IMG/VR virus record: IMGVR_UViG_2778261538_000003
Reading direction: 5' to 3' (one strand)
DNA from: a virus
Lineage: Duplodnaviria; Heunggongvirae; Uroviricota; Caudoviricetes
DNA: 42,281 nucleotides
Shown: piece by piece, positions 32,944 through 38,757 of the stretch
How positions within the stretch are numbered: the first letter of the stretch is position 1
Layout: each line of letters begins with the position of its first letter
Notes under the pieces: generated by a model
Told to the model about the DNA's origin: nothing
The model's database searches: none
The model's input: only the letters and a program-made list of their open reading frames with translations
Translations under genes and position numbers: made by a program

Positions 32944-33492
32944 ATGAAACTGAAGCTGAACAATGTTCGTCTGGCCTTCCCGTCTCTGTTTGAAGCTAAA
33001 ACTGTAAACGGCGAAGGCGATCCGCGTTTCTCCGCAGTATTTTTAATGTCTCCCAAACACCCACAACTGGAAGAAATCCGTAAAGCTATGAAGCAGGTAG
33101 CGAAGGAAAAATGGGGAGAGAAGTGGGAGCCCATTTATAACCAGCTGGAGAAAAAACTCAATCTGTGCCTGCATGATGGTGATGAAAAAGCAGAGTATGA
33201 AGGCTTCCCCGGCAATTTCTTCCTGAATGCTGCTAACAAAGCGCGCCCAGCTGTTCTTGATCGCGATCGTTCGCCACTTATTCAGGCTGACGGACGTCCT
33301 TATGCAGGGTGCTATGTAAACGCCGTTATCGATATCTGGGCACAGGACAATAATTTCGGTAAACGCATTAATGCCTCACTCGGCGGAGTCCAGTTCCTGC
33401 GAGACGGCGATGCATTCGCTGGCGGCGGAGTGGCAAGCGCTGACGATTTCGACGATATCAGCGAAGGTGCTGATGCTGAAGCACTAATTTAA
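32944..33492 (+). CDS. SSB-like protein (DUF2815-type) with acidic C-terminal tail
   Basis: 182 aa; acidic tail ...ADDFDDISEGADAEALI resembles SSB C-termini; sits between the nuclease and polymerase. Confidence 0.6.
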   Translation: MKLKLNNVRLAFPSLFEAKTVNGEGDPRFSAVFLMSPKHPQLEEIRKAMKQVAKEKWGEKWEPIYNQLEKKLNLCLHDGDEKAEYEGFPGNFFLNAANKARPAVLDRDRSPLIQADGRPYAGCYVNAVIDIWAQDNNFGKRINASLGGVQFLRDGDAFAGGGVASADDFDDISEGADAEALI

Positions 33493-33544
33493 CCCTACTT
33501 CATAGACGCCCGGTTAAACACCGGGCTACTGATTAGGCGTATAA

Positions 33545-34174
33545 TCACTCAGGAATCTTAATCTTTCTCAATTCTTTATTTAGTTCACAGATCTTTTTCT
33601 TAGACGGGAAAGTATCATACATCCAAAAACCAACAGTCTCTAAAACTATTATCATAACCATATACACAAGATAATTTAAAAGGCCTTCATTTTGCCCTAT
33701 GGAAATAATGCAGATAATAGAAAAAAGGGTAAACAGCACAAAACACAGAAAGGAAAACAGACGACTAATAATAAATAAAAAACCTGAAAAATCAACATTA
33801 ATAAAAAACACTCCGTTATCTTTCTCTATATAATTCTGAAGCTTAATCAACTGATTTATATACTGTCTTTTTTCTAATCTATTGCAAATGTAAATAACAT
33901 CTCTTCGGTTATAAGAGGATTGCAATTTCAGCGCATCACGAATAATTTTATCATTTATTCTTTTTTCTATGGCTTTCTTATCCTCCTTATCCAGATAACG
34001 TTCATACTTAATTAAATATAAAATTAACTTCTTGACATATTTAGGCTCTTTATACTTATAATTAAAAATGATCTTTCTTATCCAGACTCCCATAACAATC
34101 AAACATGAAAAAATATATCCAGCTATTTTCTCCAGATGCTCTGTATGGTCAATCAAGTATTGGATCATATGCAT
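33545..34174 (-). CDS. hypothetical membrane protein (very AT-rich cargo gene on the opposite strand)
   Basis: 209 aa, Lys/Ile/Tyr-rich with one N-terminal and two to three C-terminal hydrophobic helices; GC far below the flanking genes. Confidence 0.55.
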   Translation of the reverse strand: MHMIQYLIDHTEHLEKIAGYIFSCLIVMGVWIRKIIFNYKYKEPKYVKKLILYLIKYERYLDKEDKKAIEKRINDKIIRDALKLQSSYNRRDVIYICNRLEKRQYINQLIKLQNYIEKDNGVFFINVDFSGFLFIISRLFSFLCFVLFTLFSIICIISIGQNEGLLNYLVYMVMIIVLETVGFWMYDTFPSKKKICELNKELRKIKIPE

Positions 34175-34220
34175 AATTAATCTTTTAATCAGTTAATAGA
34201 ATAAAAACCTAGGTAAACAC

Positions 34221-36284
34221 ATGTCCAATATACTATGGGGCGACCTGGAAACCTATTGCGAAATCCCTATTACGAACGGTACCCATGCGTATGCCGAAGG
34301 CGTTGAAGTGATGCTTTTCGCATGGGCTATCAACGACGGGCCAGTAAACGTGTGGGATATCACTGCCGGTGGTGGTATTCCACACGGCTTATACGAAGCA
34401 ATCGCAGACCCTGAAACCCTGCTTTATTTCCATAACTCTCACTTCGACCGCACCGTTCTGCGTTATGCAATGCCGCGACTGGCACCGCCAGTCGAACGTT
34501 GGCGCGACACGATGGTGCAGGCGCTGGCGCACGGTCTCCCGGGGTCTCTGGGGGAACTCTGCGAAGTACTAGGCGTCCCGCAAGACAAAGCGAAGGACAA
34601 AGAAGGTAAAGCGCTGATCCAGCTGTTCTGTAAGCCACGTCCGAAAAACAGCAAACTGCGTCGGGCCACCAGTAAAACCCATCCGGAAGAATGGCGGCGC
34701 TTTGTTGCTTACGCCGGACTGGATATCGAAGCAATGCGTGAAGTCTATAAACGTCTGCCGAAGTGGAATTATCAGGGGACAGAGCTGGCGCTCTGGCATC
34801 GTGATCAGCAGATCAACGACCGGGGCGTCTGCATGGACATGCAACTCGCGCGCGCTGCGATCGAAGCGGTAGACCAGGAGCAAAAGCGCCTGGCAAAGCG
34901 TACACAGGAAATGACTGATGGCGAAGTGCAGGCAGCCACACAACGGGACGCGTTGATTAAGCACATCGTTGAATCCTACGGTGTGGAGCTACCAGACATG
35001 CAACGCAGTACCCTGGAACGTCGTATGGCCGACCCCGATTTATCATCTGCCGTGAAAGAACTGCTGGCTATCCGCCTGCAAGCCAGTACTACCAGCACCA
35101 GTAAATACAAGGCACTGATGAAAGGCGTAAGCCACGACGGGCGCTTACGCGGTACGCTACAGTTCTGCGGGGCGTCACGTACCGGTCGTTGGGCCGGACG
35201 GCTATTCCAGCCCCAGAACCTTCCCCGCCCTTCACTAAAACAGGAACAAATAGACGAAGGCATCGAAGCACTGAAAGCCGGATGTGCAGACCTGCTGTTT
35301 GACAATATCATGGAACTAACCAGTTCAGCGTTACGTGGCTGCATTATCGCGCCAACAGGCAAAAAACTAGTGGTAAGTGACTTGTCAAACATTGAAGGCC
35401 GTATGCTGGCATGGCTGGCGGGAGAAGAATGGAAACTGAATGCATTCAGAGAGTATGACGCTGGAACGGGTCCGGACTTATATAAACTGGCGTATGCAAA
35501 AGCTTTCGATATTGCACCAGATGATGTTGATAAACACATGCGTCAGATCGGTAAAGTCATGGAACTCGGTCTGGGTTATGGAGGTGGTGTATCGGCTTTC
35601 ATCACTTTTGCTCTGGTTTACGGTCTCGATCTCGACGAGCTGGCGAACGCCGCACTGCCAAACATTCCCCGCGATGTTATCCGCGAGGCAAAAAGCTGGT
35701 ACGACGAATCGGTTAAGCGTAAGTCGACCTTTGGCCTGTCCGAGCGTGTATTCATCGCATGTGACTCGCTCAAGCGCCTGTGGCGCAGGGCGCACCCGGC
35801 GACCTGCGATTTCTGGTACGAGCTGGAGCGCACTGTCCGCACAGCAATCGCCACACCGCAAAAAACATTGTATTGCGGCTATCTTAAAATCCGACGTGAT
35901 GGCGCGTGGCTGCGCATACAGCTACCATCCGGACGCGCTGTATGCTACCCGTCTCCGGTTATCGAACAAGGGAATATCACCTACATGGGTGTTAACTCTT
36001 ATTCGCGTAAATGGCAACGACTCAAAACCTACGGCGGAAAGCTGGTGGAGAACGTCACCCAGGCGGCCGCCCGCGACGTTCTAGCCAGAAACATGCCGCT
36101 GATCGAGGGTGCCGGTTACAGCATTGTGCTAACGGTACACGACGAGGTGATCACCGAAGCACCAGACACAGAAGATTTCAACGATAAAGCGCTTTCCGCG
36201 CTTCTCTCCACTAACCCCGAATGGGCACCCGATATTCCGCTGAACGCTGGCGGCTTTGAGGCGTACCACTACAAAAAAGATTGA
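34221..36284 (+). CDS. family A DNA polymerase with 3'-5' proofreading exonuclease domain
   Basis: Exo I DLETY; motif [11 protein letters not shown]; motif [13 protein letters not shown]; motif C VHDEV. Confidence 0.92.
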
Positions 36285-36348: not shown

Positions 36349-37110
36349 ATGCAGGAACTAACTGAAATGCCGATCAACTATCCATACCCGAGAGAATCTT
36401 TTCCTGACTTTTTGAGGGAGTGTGGGTTCACCAATTTTTCCCACGAACAGCGTGAGACTTATGACTGCTATCGTTTAACGAATGGCGTAATTGTTAACCT
36501 TTACACCACCCGGACCATTCAGTTTCAAGGGAACCCTCAAGAACGTCCCAATGTTGAAACTGCAATAATGTCCCATTTAGGAACGCCCCCCACGGCAACA
36601 CCACTAGCCGTAGAACAGCCATCTGAGCTTCCCAAAAAGATATTCATTGTTCACGGCCATGACCATACTGCAAAGGAACAACTTGAGCTAATCCTTCATA
36701 AACTTGGATTACCAGACCATTTCATTTTGCAGAATACGGGAGGGACTGGACTCACCATTATTGAAGAGCTTGAACGTGAAATTGGGCAAGGACAAACTGC
36801 TACTCGTTTCGGGATTGTTCTTTTGACACCTGATGATATGGGATACTCAAAGCGCGCCGGTGAAGCAGAAATCCAACCCCGCGCAAGACAGAACGTTGTA
36901 CTCGAGATGGGTATGCTTCTTTCGTCCTTAGGGCGCAGCAATGTAGCAATCCTTCAGAAACAGCACCTAGAACAGCCTTCTGATGCTAACGGGATTTTGT
37001 ATCTGAATTTCAACGACCATGTACGTGAAACAGTTCCTCGTCTAGTGCAACGGTTACAAAATTCTGGTTTCGAATTTACACAAGCTCAAATAGCTAACGC
37101 TTCCTCGTAA
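36349..37110 (+). CDS. TIR-like domain protein (COG4271-type) with unknown N-terminal domain
   Basis: C-terminal half carries KIFIVHGHD ... FGIVLLTPDD ... RARQNVVLEMGML ... VAIL, matching the TIR-like nucleotide-binding fold as recalled; own terminator downstream. Confidence 0.6.
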   Translation: MQELTEMPINYPYPRESFPDFLRECGFTNFSHEQRETYDCYRLTNGVIVNLYTTRTIQFQGNPQERPNVETAIMSHLGTPPTATPLAVEQPSELPKKIFIVHGHDHTAKEQLELILHKLGLPDHFILQNTGGTGLTIIEELEREIGQGQTATRFGIVLLTPDDMGYSKRAGEAEIQPRARQNVVLEMGMLLSSLGRSNVAILQKQHLEQPSDANGILYLNFNDHVRETVPRLVQRLQNSGFEFTQAQIANASS

Positions 37111-37839: not shown

Positions 37840-38757
37840 ATGGCTAAGCAACAAACGAAAGAAATAAACCAAGATGATGTAAAAGACAACAAAAATATGC
37901 CACCTCATATATGCGGCATTATTATGCCAATTGCGGACATAGAAGGTTATCCCACTGGACATTGGAGAAATGTTCATGACATTATTTGTGAAGCATCAAA
38001 TGATGCCGGATTCAAGGCAAATTTGGTAAGTTCAGATGATGATGTTGCAGTAATACAAAAACGAATTGTTCAAAATCTTTATGAAAACCCCATAGTTGTT
38101 TGCGATATAAGTGCTCGAAACGCTAATGTAATGTTTGAATTAGGAATGCGTCTCGCATTTGACAAACCGACCGTAATTATTAAGGACGAGCGCACTCCTT
38201 ATAGCTTTGACATTTCATCAATTGAACATTTAGAGTACCCTTCGGATTTAAGATACCAATCAATCAATTTATTCAAAGAAAGACTTGCGAGCAAGATAAA
38301 AGAAACATATTTAAAGTCAGTAACTGATCCTGAATACACAACATTCCTCAAACATTTTGGCACTTTCAAAGTTGCACAACTAGACCAGAAAGAAGTATCA
38401 GAAACTGAGTATCTGGCATCTGAGATTAAAGATATCAAATCATTATTGATATCTCTTAGGGCAACAGCAACGACAAAATCCAGATTTTTCGACTCACCGA
38501 AAAATTACTCGCAGCAGGAAATTGACAACTCTGTAGATATTATTAAAAATGGAGTTGCCAGTTATACTATAAGGAGTGAAGGATTTAGTATATCAAAATC
38601 AGCACTAGAAAAGTTACGCCAAAGACTACACAACGCAGGATTTCAAGTCGAGCAAATAGTATTGACAGGAAAAGAAGTAATTATTCATCTGTCATCACCT
38701 TTAATAAATGAAGAAGAAAATATTTTTAAAGATGCAATAGTAACAGCACTATTATAA
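37840..38757 (+). CDS. NDT/TIR-superfamily domain protein with unknown C-terminal domain (AT-rich cargo gene)
   Basis: N-terminal ...NPIVVCDISARNANVMFELGMRLAFDKPTVII resembles the nucleoside 2-deoxyribosyltransferase-like / TIR-like catalytic strand-Glu motif; low GC; own hairpin terminator. Confidence 0.55.
   Translation: MAKQQTKEINQDDVKDNKNMPPHICGIIMPIADIEGYPTGHWRNVHDIICEASNDAGFKANLVSSDDDVAVIQKRIVQNLYENPIVVCDISARNANVMFELGMRLAFDKPTVIIKDERTPYSFDISSIEHLEYPSDLRYQSINLFKERLASKIKETYLKSVTDPEYTTFLKHFGTFKVAQLDQKEVSETEYLASEIKDIKSLLISLRATATTKSRFFDSPKNYSQQEIDNSVDIIKNGVASYTIRSEGFSISKSALEKLRQRLHNAGFQVEQIVLTGKEVIIHLSSPLINEEENIFKDAIVTALL

What the first reader, a model, noticed from the sequence alone, without database searches (positions are those of the whole stretch)
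33545..34174. Very AT-rich membrane-protein gene inserted on the opposite strand between the SSB-like and polymerase genes
GC is far below the flanking 55 percent-range genes and the orientation is reversed. The product is a 209-aa Lys/Ile-rich protein with hydrophobic helices at both ends. This composition is typical of recently acquired exclusion or abortive-infection membrane proteins rather than replication functions.
Basis: partly seen in the sequence, partly recalled or inferred. Interest (0 to 1): 0.55.

Follow-up and report, generated by a model that had tools for sequence, protein, structure and literature searches.

The report
Swappable prophage membrane-protein gene beside polymerase
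The AT-rich reverse-strand gene is real and encodes a three-helix inner-membrane protein of an uncharacterised family, carried as exchangeable cargo between the SSB and DNA polymerase genes of an E. coli prophage; it is most likely a prophage protection function against other phages, not a replication protein, but that role is inferred and untested.

Summary
ORF 33545..34174 (-) encodes 209 aa at GC 0.287, the lowest-GC stretch of the window. It has one N-terminal and two C-terminal transmembrane helices.

The window is about identical to the temperate Escherichia phage vB_EcoM-606R2. The gene lies in a cargo slot whose right edge is exactly the polA ATG. Its left edge is the SSB stop or a hairpin just after it.

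Of 159 E. coli genomes with these flanks, 67 carry this gene. No empty site appeared among 60 sampled. Other genomes carry:
- a 199-aa remote homologue in the same orientation (hhalign 97.6%)
- a SIR2 defence candidate (PDC-S25)
- Nmad5, BRO-N or Ant genes

Distant homologues (26-43% identity) sit alone in other mobile-element accessory sites: P2-like tail genes, beside a dGTPase/RM island, opposite RecT, and in ICEs. All are AT-rich.

There is no Pfam, PADLOC, PDB or fold match. The architecture resembles P22 SieA, but homology and the SieA motif both tested negative.

Best reading: a solitary prophage accessory gene for a membrane exclusion or defence protein. The gene diverges as much as its flanks, so "recently acquired" is not supported. 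Interest is moderate.

The parts
33545..34174 (-). 209-aa ORF: three-TM inner-membrane protein of an uncharacterised family (RefSeq relatives WP_000551020/WP_000551021, PHROG 10579)
33527..34220 (.). Exchangeable cassette. Identity to prophages with other cargo stops after the hairpin on the left and exactly at the polA ATG on the right. The cassette also supplies the polA 5' leader and RBS.
   Evidence: boundary alignments; this 694-bp unit is in 67 of 5426 E. coli genomes, single copy
33508..33526 (.). GC-rich hairpin GCCCGGTTAAACACCGGGC after the SSB stop. It is shared with the BRO-N, SIR2 and Ant cargo types, where a T-run follows it (terminator-like). Here the T-run is absent. It lies 19 nt beyond the stop of the minus-strand ORF.
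   Evidence: RNA fold -22.2 kcal/mol, z -2.6
34064..34126 (-). TM1 (aa 17-37). It is preceded by a conserved acidic N-tail, Y-[LI]-x-[DE]-H-x-E-x-L-x-K, predicted periplasmic.
33785..34063 (-). Cytoplasmic domain (aa 38-130; 22 K+R): four helices plus a beta-hairpin, with the conserved motif YL.KY..YL..(D/E)
33611..33784 (-). TM2 (aa 131-160) and TM3 (aa 165-188), joined by a 4-residue periplasmic turn
33548..33610 (-). Basic cytoplasmic C-tail carrying the only invariant residues of the family (P190 nearly invariant; N199 and L202 invariant): FP[SG]..xI..(I/Y)N.(E/Q)L.K
34198..34227 (-). Weak sigma-70-like site (TGGACA-18-TATTCT). Its -35 overlaps the polA start codon. It is only a candidate promoter for the ORF.
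   Evidence: the count of such sites is no higher than in shuffles
32944..33492 (+). Left conserved flank: DUF2815/Enc34 (Gp2.5-like) SSB
34221..36284 (+). Right conserved flank: family-A DNA polymerase

Best explanation
The gene is a solitary accessory ('moron') gene sitting in an exchangeable cargo slot between the SSB and polA genes of a temperate E. coli phage. It encodes a small inner-membrane protein with predicted N-out/C-in topology: TM1, then a basic helical cytoplasmic domain of about 90 aa, then a TM2-TM3 hairpin, then a conserved basic cytoplasmic tail.

The most likely role is protection of the lysogen and prophage against other phages at the inner membrane. I favour SieA-type superinfection exclusion, in which DNA delivery across the inner membrane is blocked.

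Shown: gene reality, membrane architecture, cargo-slot anatomy, the allelic 199-aa homologue, and dispersal of the family among different mobile elements.

Inferred: expression from the prophage, anti-phage activity, and the step that is blocked.
For: 1. Variable slot with sharp edges at the SSB stop or hairpin and at the polA ATG. No empty site was seen among 60 sampled of 159 genomes. Of the 57 sampled records holding both flanks, about 26 carry this gene and 7 carry its 199-aa homologue.
2. The 199-aa alternative lies in the same place and orientation and is a full-length remote homologue: hhalign probability 97.6%, E 4e-12, 185 columns, 19% identity. This is a deeply diverged allele pair, as expected for arms-race genes.
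3. Other cargo in the slot includes a SIR2 protein matching the defence candidate PDC-S25 (E 4e-157). The next gene after polA is a TIR-like PDC-S35 (E 1e-108).
4. Distant homologues are single genes with no conserved partner, found in accessory sites of other elements. P0005 lies between gpS and gpV of a P2-like prophage, within the tail-gene region that PMC13586616 reports as holding an accessory/defence hotspot. P0007 lies next to a dGTPase and a type II RM, beside gene Q. P0008 is on the opposite strand between RecT and a PAPS-reductase gene. P0010 is at a prophage end. Others are in conjugative or integrative elements and islands.
5. The three-TM architecture and the cytoplasmic post-TM3 P...N motif parallel P22 SieA. 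[quoted passage not shown]
6. The positive-inside rule gives a clean topology. The AlphaFold model built with the family alignment has pLDDT 80.6.
Against: There is no homology to any characterised exclusion or defence protein:
- Pfam: none.
- PADLOC: none apart from one 17.9-bit hit of one member to PDC-S47.
- lambda SieB, P22 SieB and P22 SieA profiles: all negative.
- SieA motif: 0 of 26 family members.
- PDB and BFVD fold searches: only generic helical bundles.

No convincing promoter or terminator was found for the ORF. One natural allele is a nonsense mutant. Guilt by association in phage variable regions also fits anti-defence or other lysogenic-conversion roles.
Confidence: 0.5

Rival explanations
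1. Abortive-infection effector. The cytoplasmic domain senses infection and the TM2-TM3 hairpin oligomerises into a pore that depolarises the membrane, killing the infected cell (as with RexB, AbiZ or SLATT-type effectors).
For: It is a single-gene membrane protein with a cytoplasmic domain of about 90 aa that could act as a sensor. Its context is the same defence-type context as above. Three family members gave weak PADLOC hits to a SLATT-type effector model (E 0.021).
Against: The SLATT hits are at noise level. No toxicity-control partner or antitoxin is conserved nearby. Constitutively tolerated membrane proteins carried by prophages are more often exclusion proteins. Nothing in the sequence separates this rival from the exclusion model.
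Confidence: 0.2
2. Another accessory function not directed at phages. Examples are entry exclusion or competition among conjugative elements, immunity to a membrane-targeting toxin, an anti-defence factor, or a host-fitness (lysogenic conversion) factor.
For: Family members also sit in conjugative or mobilisable elements: near TraG_N, near a TraI_2 relaxase, and in a CbtA/CbeA island. One member gave a noise-level Pfam hit to TraS (E 0.1). BRO-N, Ant and Nmad5 cargo in the same slot are not defence genes.
Against: P0004 is not at the traS position: it is divergently oriented and two genes away from the TraG_N gene. Most contexts are prophages. No toxin gene is linked to the family.
Confidence: 0.2
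3. A function in the phage life cycle tied to its position. It could anchor the replisome to the membrane (as with phi29 p16.7), or control polA expression through antisense or divergent transcription, since each cassette supplies the polA leader.
For: The gene lies between SSB and polA. The cassette edge is exactly the polA ATG, so each cargo type brings its own polA RBS. The candidate -35 element overlaps the polA start codon. Several cargo types place a minus-strand gene directly against polA.
Against: The protein is absent from about 45% of otherwise near-identical prophages and from other phages with the same module. Homologues occur far from any replication gene.
Confidence: 0.07
4. A spurious or decaying ORF in an AT-rich spacer.
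For: One allele (E. coli O55:H7 DEC5B) carries a nonsense codon at K63 and is left unannotated. The Shine-Dalgarno sequence is weak.
Against: Ten proteins reach E <= 0.001 in the exhaustive search, and the full-length ones among them conserve motifs along the whole protein. The ORF is intact in 4 of 5 diverged alleles, and its nonsynonymous:synonymous ratio of 7:5 is below the roughly 3:1 I would expect under neutrality (my estimate, not computed). The 90%-identity cluster has 456 members. The AlphaFold model is confident when given the family alignment.
Confidence: 0.03

Closest known systems
P22 SieA (superinfection exclusion protein A, Pfam PF26849; Leavitt et al. 2024, PMC10883804)
   Same: Both are small prophage-borne inner-membrane proteins with one N-terminal and two C-terminal TM helices separated by a helical cytoplasmic segment. 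In both, the best-conserved motif is a short cytoplasmic P...N-K stretch right after TM3 (SieA RYPGEANGFNKEFIK; here FPSKKKICELNKELRK). Both are encoded on the strand opposite to their neighbours, and both are present in only some related phages.
   Different: There is no detectable homology: hhalign of profile against profile gives probability 0.5%, and there is no Pfam hit. The defining motif F.RYP.EA..FNK is found in 0 of 26 family members against 9 of 9 SieA proteins. The P-to-N spacing is 9 rather than 7. The cytoplasmic domain is about 90 aa rather than about 50 aa. The function of the window protein is untested.
lambda / P22 SieB
   Same: An AT-rich exclusion gene placed on the opposite strand inside an early operon of a temperate phage.
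   Different: Unrelated in sequence (hhalign probability 0.1%). The architecture also differs: in SieB the TM helices lie in the N-terminal half and the C-terminal domain is soluble.
Defence/accessory hotspots of P2-like phages and P4 satellites (Rousset et al. 2022, PMC9122126; PMC13586616)
   Same: Conserved core genes flank a slot that holds many alternative cargo sets, some of them known or candidate defence systems, which are exchanged with other mobile elements. One homologue (P0005) sits among the tail genes of a P2-like prophage, between gpS and gpV.
   Different: Here the slot is inside the replication module (DUF2815 SSB | polA) of a different phage type. I found no description of this particular slot in the library searched.
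Morons as defined for lambdoid phages (Juhala/Hendrix; from my own knowledge)
   Same: A single extra gene with deviant base composition, present or absent among close relatives, and oriented independently of the surrounding operon.
   Different: The moron definition includes its own promoter and terminator, and I could not demonstrate either here.

Membership tests
P22 SieA family (PF26849) | Sequence or profile homology to SieA | tested here: not met
   hhalign of the family profile A5 against the SieA profile A6 gives probability 0.5%. Single-sequence comparison gives 0.3%. There is no Pfam hit at E<=1 for 10 members.
P22 SieA family (PF26849) | Conserved cytoplasmic motif FxRYPxEAxxFNK (PMC10883804) | tested here: not met
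   The regular expression matches 9 of 9 SieA proteins and 0 of 26 members of the window family.
P22 SieA family (PF26849) | Three-TM inner-membrane architecture | tested here: met
   Prediction only: hydropathy, AlphaFold helices and the positive-inside rule.
P22 SieA family (PF26849) | Expressed from the prophage and blocks DNA delivery by superinfecting phage | not testable with these tools
   This needs expression and infection assays.
lambda/P22 SieB | Sequence or profile homology | tested here: not met
   hhalign probability 0.1% against lambda SieB and against P22 SieB.
Known or candidate anti-phage systems in PADLOC-DB v2 | Match to any of the 5027 models | tested here: not met
   There is no hit for the window protein. 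Among 30 members the only notable hit is P0010 to PDC-S47 (E 4e-4, 17.9 bits, residues 18-94). I treat that as a lead only.
Phage cargo/defence hotspot | Conserved flanking core genes with diverse alternative cargo, including defence genes | tested here: met
   At least seven cargo sets lie between SSB and polA genes that are 96-100% identical. The SIR2 cargo matches PDC-S25. The edges fall at gene boundaries.
Moron | Deviant base composition and presence/absence among close relatives | tested here: met
   GC 0.287 against 0.49 for the window. The gene is present in 67 of 159 related prophages.
Moron | Own promoter and terminator | tested here: inconclusive
   Only one 9/12 sigma-70-like site lies upstream, and the number of such sites is no higher than in shuffles. 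The hairpin downstream has no T-run.
Class I holin | Small (about 100 aa) three-TM N-out/C-in protein encoded next to the endolysin | tested here: not met
   The topology is similar, but the protein has a 90-aa cytoplasmic insert. The phage has its own holin, endolysin and Rz cluster elsewhere (annotation of ON470579).
Replication module component (DUF2800-DUF2815-PolA family) | Conserved at this position across phages with the module | tested here: not met
   The gene is absent from BPP-1, YeP5, Acinetobacter phage 4316 and APSE-1 and from 92 of 159 E. coli relatives.

The most novel reading that the evidence does not exclude
The 209-aa and 199-aa proteins are two specificity alleles of a previously unrecognised single-protein inner-membrane anti-phage family. 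The family is unrelated in sequence to SieA, SieB or Imm. It shuttles between PolA-type, P2-like and lambdoid prophages and ICEs. The SSB|polA junction is then a so-far undescribed defence hotspot inside a phage replication module, in which each cassette also brings the polymerase's translation-initiation region.
Probability: 0.4. Interest if true: 0.55.

Novelty: new member of a known kind. Interest (0 to 1): 0.4.

Why it matters
If the protein does exclude or abort other phages, it adds a new sequence family to the short list of single-gene membrane exclusion proteins. It also comes with a natural pair of deeply diverged alleles at one locus, which suits mapping of what sets target specificity. 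Separately, it flags the SSB|polA junction, and two further slots downstream, of a prophage found in 159 of 5426 (about 3%) complete E. coli genomes as a place to look for new defence genes. If the protein has no anti-phage activity, the finding is an ordinary prophage moron of unknown role.

Tried and rejected
- The k-mer-indexed protein search with the single sequence found only the protein's own 90% cluster and fragments of it. The exhaustive phmmer search was needed to find distant homologues.
- The search for related loci with the family alignment failed because no stretch was conserved enough.
- Homology to lambda SieB, P22 SieB and P22 SieA was tested and rejected.
- APSE-1 P47, another minus-strand membrane protein in the same slot, is unrelated.
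- The PDB sequence search gave nothing.
- Literature searches found nothing for the phage names, the RefSeq protein accessions, DUF2815 hotspots or the PDC names.
- The promoter and terminator scans were uninformative.
- The start at M28 implied by the 182-position PHROG profile was rejected, because distant homologues conserve residues 1-27.

Full report
**Observation**

Its GC is 0.287 (GC1/2/3 = 0.33/0.21/0.32). The SSB gene is 0.49, polA is 0.54 and the whole window is 0.492. It is the lowest-GC 630-bp stretch of the window, more than 4 sd below the mean. The protein is rich in Ile, Leu and Lys (32, 23 and 23 residues). It has one hydrophobic helix near the N-terminus and two near the C-terminus. 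Its flanks on the plus strand are a DUF2800 PD-(D/E)XK nuclease, a DUF2815/Enc34 (Gp2.5-like) SSB and a family-A DNA polymerase.

**Where the window comes from**

The region is 100% identical to Escherichia phages vB_EcoM-606R2, -689R2 and -611R5 and to prophages in E. coli chromosomes. The window also carries a CI-like repressor, a primase-polymerase, a SNF2 helicase, an integrase and tail genes. It is therefore a temperate phage or prophage.

**Is it a real gene?**

Yes, on four grounds.
- The indexed search found only one 90% cluster (456 members, Enterobacteriaceae, all named 'hypothetical') plus fragments.
- The exhaustive phmmer search found ten proteins at E <= 0.001, among them full-length homologues at 26-43% identity. 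They conserve motifs along the whole protein, including the first 27 residues. This favours the long ORF (start at M1 or M3) over the M28 start implied by PHROG 10579.
- Among five diverged E. coli alleles, four are intact. The commonest differs by 7 nonsynonymous and 5 synonymous codons. One allele (O55:H7 DEC5B) has a nonsense codon at K63.
- With the family alignment, AlphaFold2 gives a confident all-helical model with one beta-hairpin (pLDDT 80.6, pTM 0.60).

**Predicted protein architecture**

| Segment | Residues | Feature | Predicted side |
|---|---|---|---|
| N-tail | 1-16 | acidic, 1 K+R | periplasm |
| TM1 | 17-37 | transmembrane helix | membrane |
| Loop | 38-130 | 22 K+R | cytoplasm |
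| TM2 | 131-160 | transmembrane helix | membrane |
| Turn | 161-164 | 4 residues | periplasm |
| TM3 | 165-188 | transmembrane helix | membrane |
| C-tail | 189-209 | 7 K+R | cytoplasm |

This gives an N-out/C-in topology. The only invariant residues of the family, N199 and L202, lie in the cytoplasmic C-tail, together with the nearly invariant P190 and I195. The tail motif is FP[SG]..xI..(I/Y)N.(E/Q)L.K.

**Anatomy of the insertion**

I aligned the junction with related prophages that carry other cargo.
- On the right, similarity begins exactly at the polA ATG (34221). Each cargo type therefore brings its own polA leader and RBS.
- On the left, similarity ends at one of two points. For the 199-aa and Nmad5 types it ends exactly at the SSB stop (33492). 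For the BRO-N, SIR2 and Ant types it ends after a shared hairpin, GCCCGGTTAAACACCGGGC (33508-33526). In those types a T-run follows the hairpin and makes it terminator-like. In the window the T-run is absent.
- The cassette in the window is therefore about 33527-34220.
- This 694-bp unit occurs once in 67 of 5426 complete E. coli genomes. That number equals the 67 records in which the flank-containing query is at least 80% covered, which indicates the unit lies at this junction wherever it occurs.

**Census of the slot**

159 E. coli genomes have the SSB and polA flanks. I sampled 60 of them evenly down the ranking, using a query made only of the flanks. None showed an empty site. Of the 57 that held both flanks:

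| Cargo between SSB and polA | Sampled records |
|---|---|
| This 209-aa gene | about 26 |
| A 199-aa minus-strand gene alone | 5 |
| BRO-N plus the 199-aa gene | 2 |
| Nmad5 plus an 89-aa two-TM minus-strand gene | 11 |
| Nmad5 plus a 229-aa minus-strand soluble protein | 10 |
| A 493-aa SIR2 protein | 2 |
| BRO-N alone | 1 |

An AntA/B type also exists. The SIR2 protein matches the PADLOC defence candidate PDC-S25 (E 4e-157).

More distant phages with the same DUF2800-DUF2815-PolA module also carry unrelated small genes at this junction:
- BPP-1: bbp41.
- YeP5: two hypothetical genes.
- Acinetobacter phage 4316: DUF2303 genes.
- APSE-1: P49 plus P47, a minus-strand tail-anchored coiled-coil protein.

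**The 199-aa alternative is a remote homologue**

Pairwise BLAST shows only the C-terminal similarity (E 0.017). Profile-profile comparison aligns 185 columns at 97.6% probability (E 4e-12, 19% identity). The architecture and both motifs are shared. So about 55% of these prophages carry one of two very divergent alleles of one family, at the same site and in the same orientation.

**The family elsewhere**

Homologues are solitary and have no conserved partner gene.
- P0005 (38% identity) lies between gpS and gpV of a P2-like prophage in Rahnella. PMC13586616 reports an accessory/defence hotspot within the P2 tail genes.
- P0007 lies beside gene Q of a lambdoid prophage, in a small island with a type II RM and a dGTPase (PADLOC E 5e-144).
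- P0008 lies on the opposite strand between RecT and a PAPS-reductase gene.
- P0010 lies at a prophage end near HicA and a Tad2-like gene.
- P0004 (43% identity) is in a conjugative element.
- Members of the 199-aa subfamily are in a CbtA/CbeA island in Enterobacter, in the same SSB|pol slot in Citrobacter, and in an integrative mobilisable element in Salmonella.

All members are AT-rich (GC 0.28-0.40) whatever their surroundings (0.41-0.54). Within E. coli the cassette has diverged about as much as its flanks (2.1%, against 1.1% for SSB and 2.6% for polA). Low GC is therefore a stable family trait. The label 'recently acquired' is not supported.

**Comparison with known families**

- There is no Pfam family and no PADLOC model.
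- The one exception is an isolated 17.9-bit hit of P0010 to PDC-S47, which I treat as a lead only.
- No relative has a solved structure, and there is no specific fold match.
- lambda SieB and P22 SieB are unrelated and built differently.

P22 SieA is the closest in design. It is an inner-membrane protein with three predicted TM helices, expressed from the prophage, that blocks DNA delivery. Its hallmark is a cytoplasmic motif, FxRYPxEAxxFNK, right after TM3 (PMC10883804; sequence). The window family has the same TM1 / helical linker / TM2-TM3 / short basic tail layout, and a P...N-x-E-L-x-K motif at the equivalent place.

Homology nevertheless tested negative. hhalign between the two family profiles gives probability 0.5%. 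The SieA motif is found in 0 of 26 family members against 9 of 9 SieA proteins. The P-to-N spacing also differs. I therefore say it may work like SieA. I do not file it as a SieA.

**Mechanism: what is shown and what is inferred**

Shown:
- It is an accessory membrane-protein gene in a swappable slot.
- It has a deeply diverged allelic homologue at the same site.
- The family is dispersed among several kinds of mobile element.
- Defence candidates occur as alternative cargo and as neighbours.

Inferred:
- The gene is expressed from the prophage. The only candidate promoter is a weak TGGACA-18-TATTCT site whose -35 overlaps the polA start codon.
- The protein protects the lysogen at the inner membrane. 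This would most likely be by blocking DNA entry of superinfecting phages. Abortive infection by membrane depolarisation is the main rival.
- Early rightward transcription towards polA would run antisense through the gene during lytic growth and could switch it off.

None of these three inferences could be tested here.

**Verdict**

The gene is an uncharacterised family in a known kind of setting: prophage cargo slots and morons that encode membrane exclusion proteins. A specialist would not be surprised. The value lies in a clean testable candidate, a natural allele pair, and a hotspot inside a replication module that I could not find described. Interest 0.4.

Noticed in passing
window 36349-37110 (+): The gene right after polA is a TIR-like CAP12/Pycsar-type protein that matches the PADLOC defence candidate PDC-S35 (E 1e-108; Pfam PF10137). 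In related prophages this position instead holds Ant or BRO-N genes, so it is a second variable slot.
   Followed up: partly
window 37840-38757 (+): A second low-GC gene (GC 0.34, 305 aa) lies between the VRR-NUC nuclease and the SNF2 helicase. It has no Pfam family, a weak PADLOC 'TIR effector' hit (E 1e-6) and matches PHROG 3634. Relatives carry different genes at this position, so it is a third variable slot.
   Followed up: partly
window about 281-1490 (ORF 569-1414, +): A third low-GC stretch holds a 281-aa ORF with no Pfam or PADLOC match, near the tail-fibre assembly gene (2257-2850). It may be another accessory gene.
   Followed up: partly
L006 6705-8186 (E. coli Rb-50): The alternative cargo at the same SSB|polA slot is a 493-aa SIR2 protein matching the PADLOC candidate PDC-S25 (E 4e-157), with ThsA-like SIR2 similarity.
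   Followed up: partly
L003 2851-3120 (-) and L007 7280-7969 (-): Two further unrelated minus-strand genes abut the polA ATG in the Nmad5 cargo types: an 89-aa two-TM protein and a 229-aa soluble protein. Neither has a Pfam or PADLOC match. The slot seems to have a plus-strand sub-slot and a minus-strand sub-slot.
   Followed up: partly
L033 3710-4282 (-) (APSE-1 P47): In the aphid-symbiont phage APSE-1, the same SSB|polA junction holds a minus-strand, tail-anchored protein made of ADVRKDLSAEI-type coiled-coil repeats (annotated DUF1640). It is unrelated to the window family.
   Followed up: partly
L005 1544-2059 (E. coli O121 201805972): An HNH endonuclease gene is inserted between the DUF2800 and DUF2815 genes in some relatives. 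It looks like a homing-endonuclease-type insertion.
   Followed up: no
L021 (E. coli O55:H7 DEC5B), equivalent of window codon 63: A natural nonsense allele (K63*) of the 209-aa gene. RefSeq leaves the ORF unannotated there.
   Followed up: yes
window 33508-33526: The hairpin after the SSB stop is followed by a T-run (terminator-like) in the BRO-N, SIR2 and Ant cargo types, but not in the window. Early transcription probably reads through the cassette to reach polA here.
   Followed up: partly
L020 (ETEC H10407) polA: The polA gene of the ETEC H10407 prophage is annotated as frameshifted, while the 209-aa gene next to it is intact. The accessory gene has thus outlived a replication gene in a decaying prophage.
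   Followed up: no
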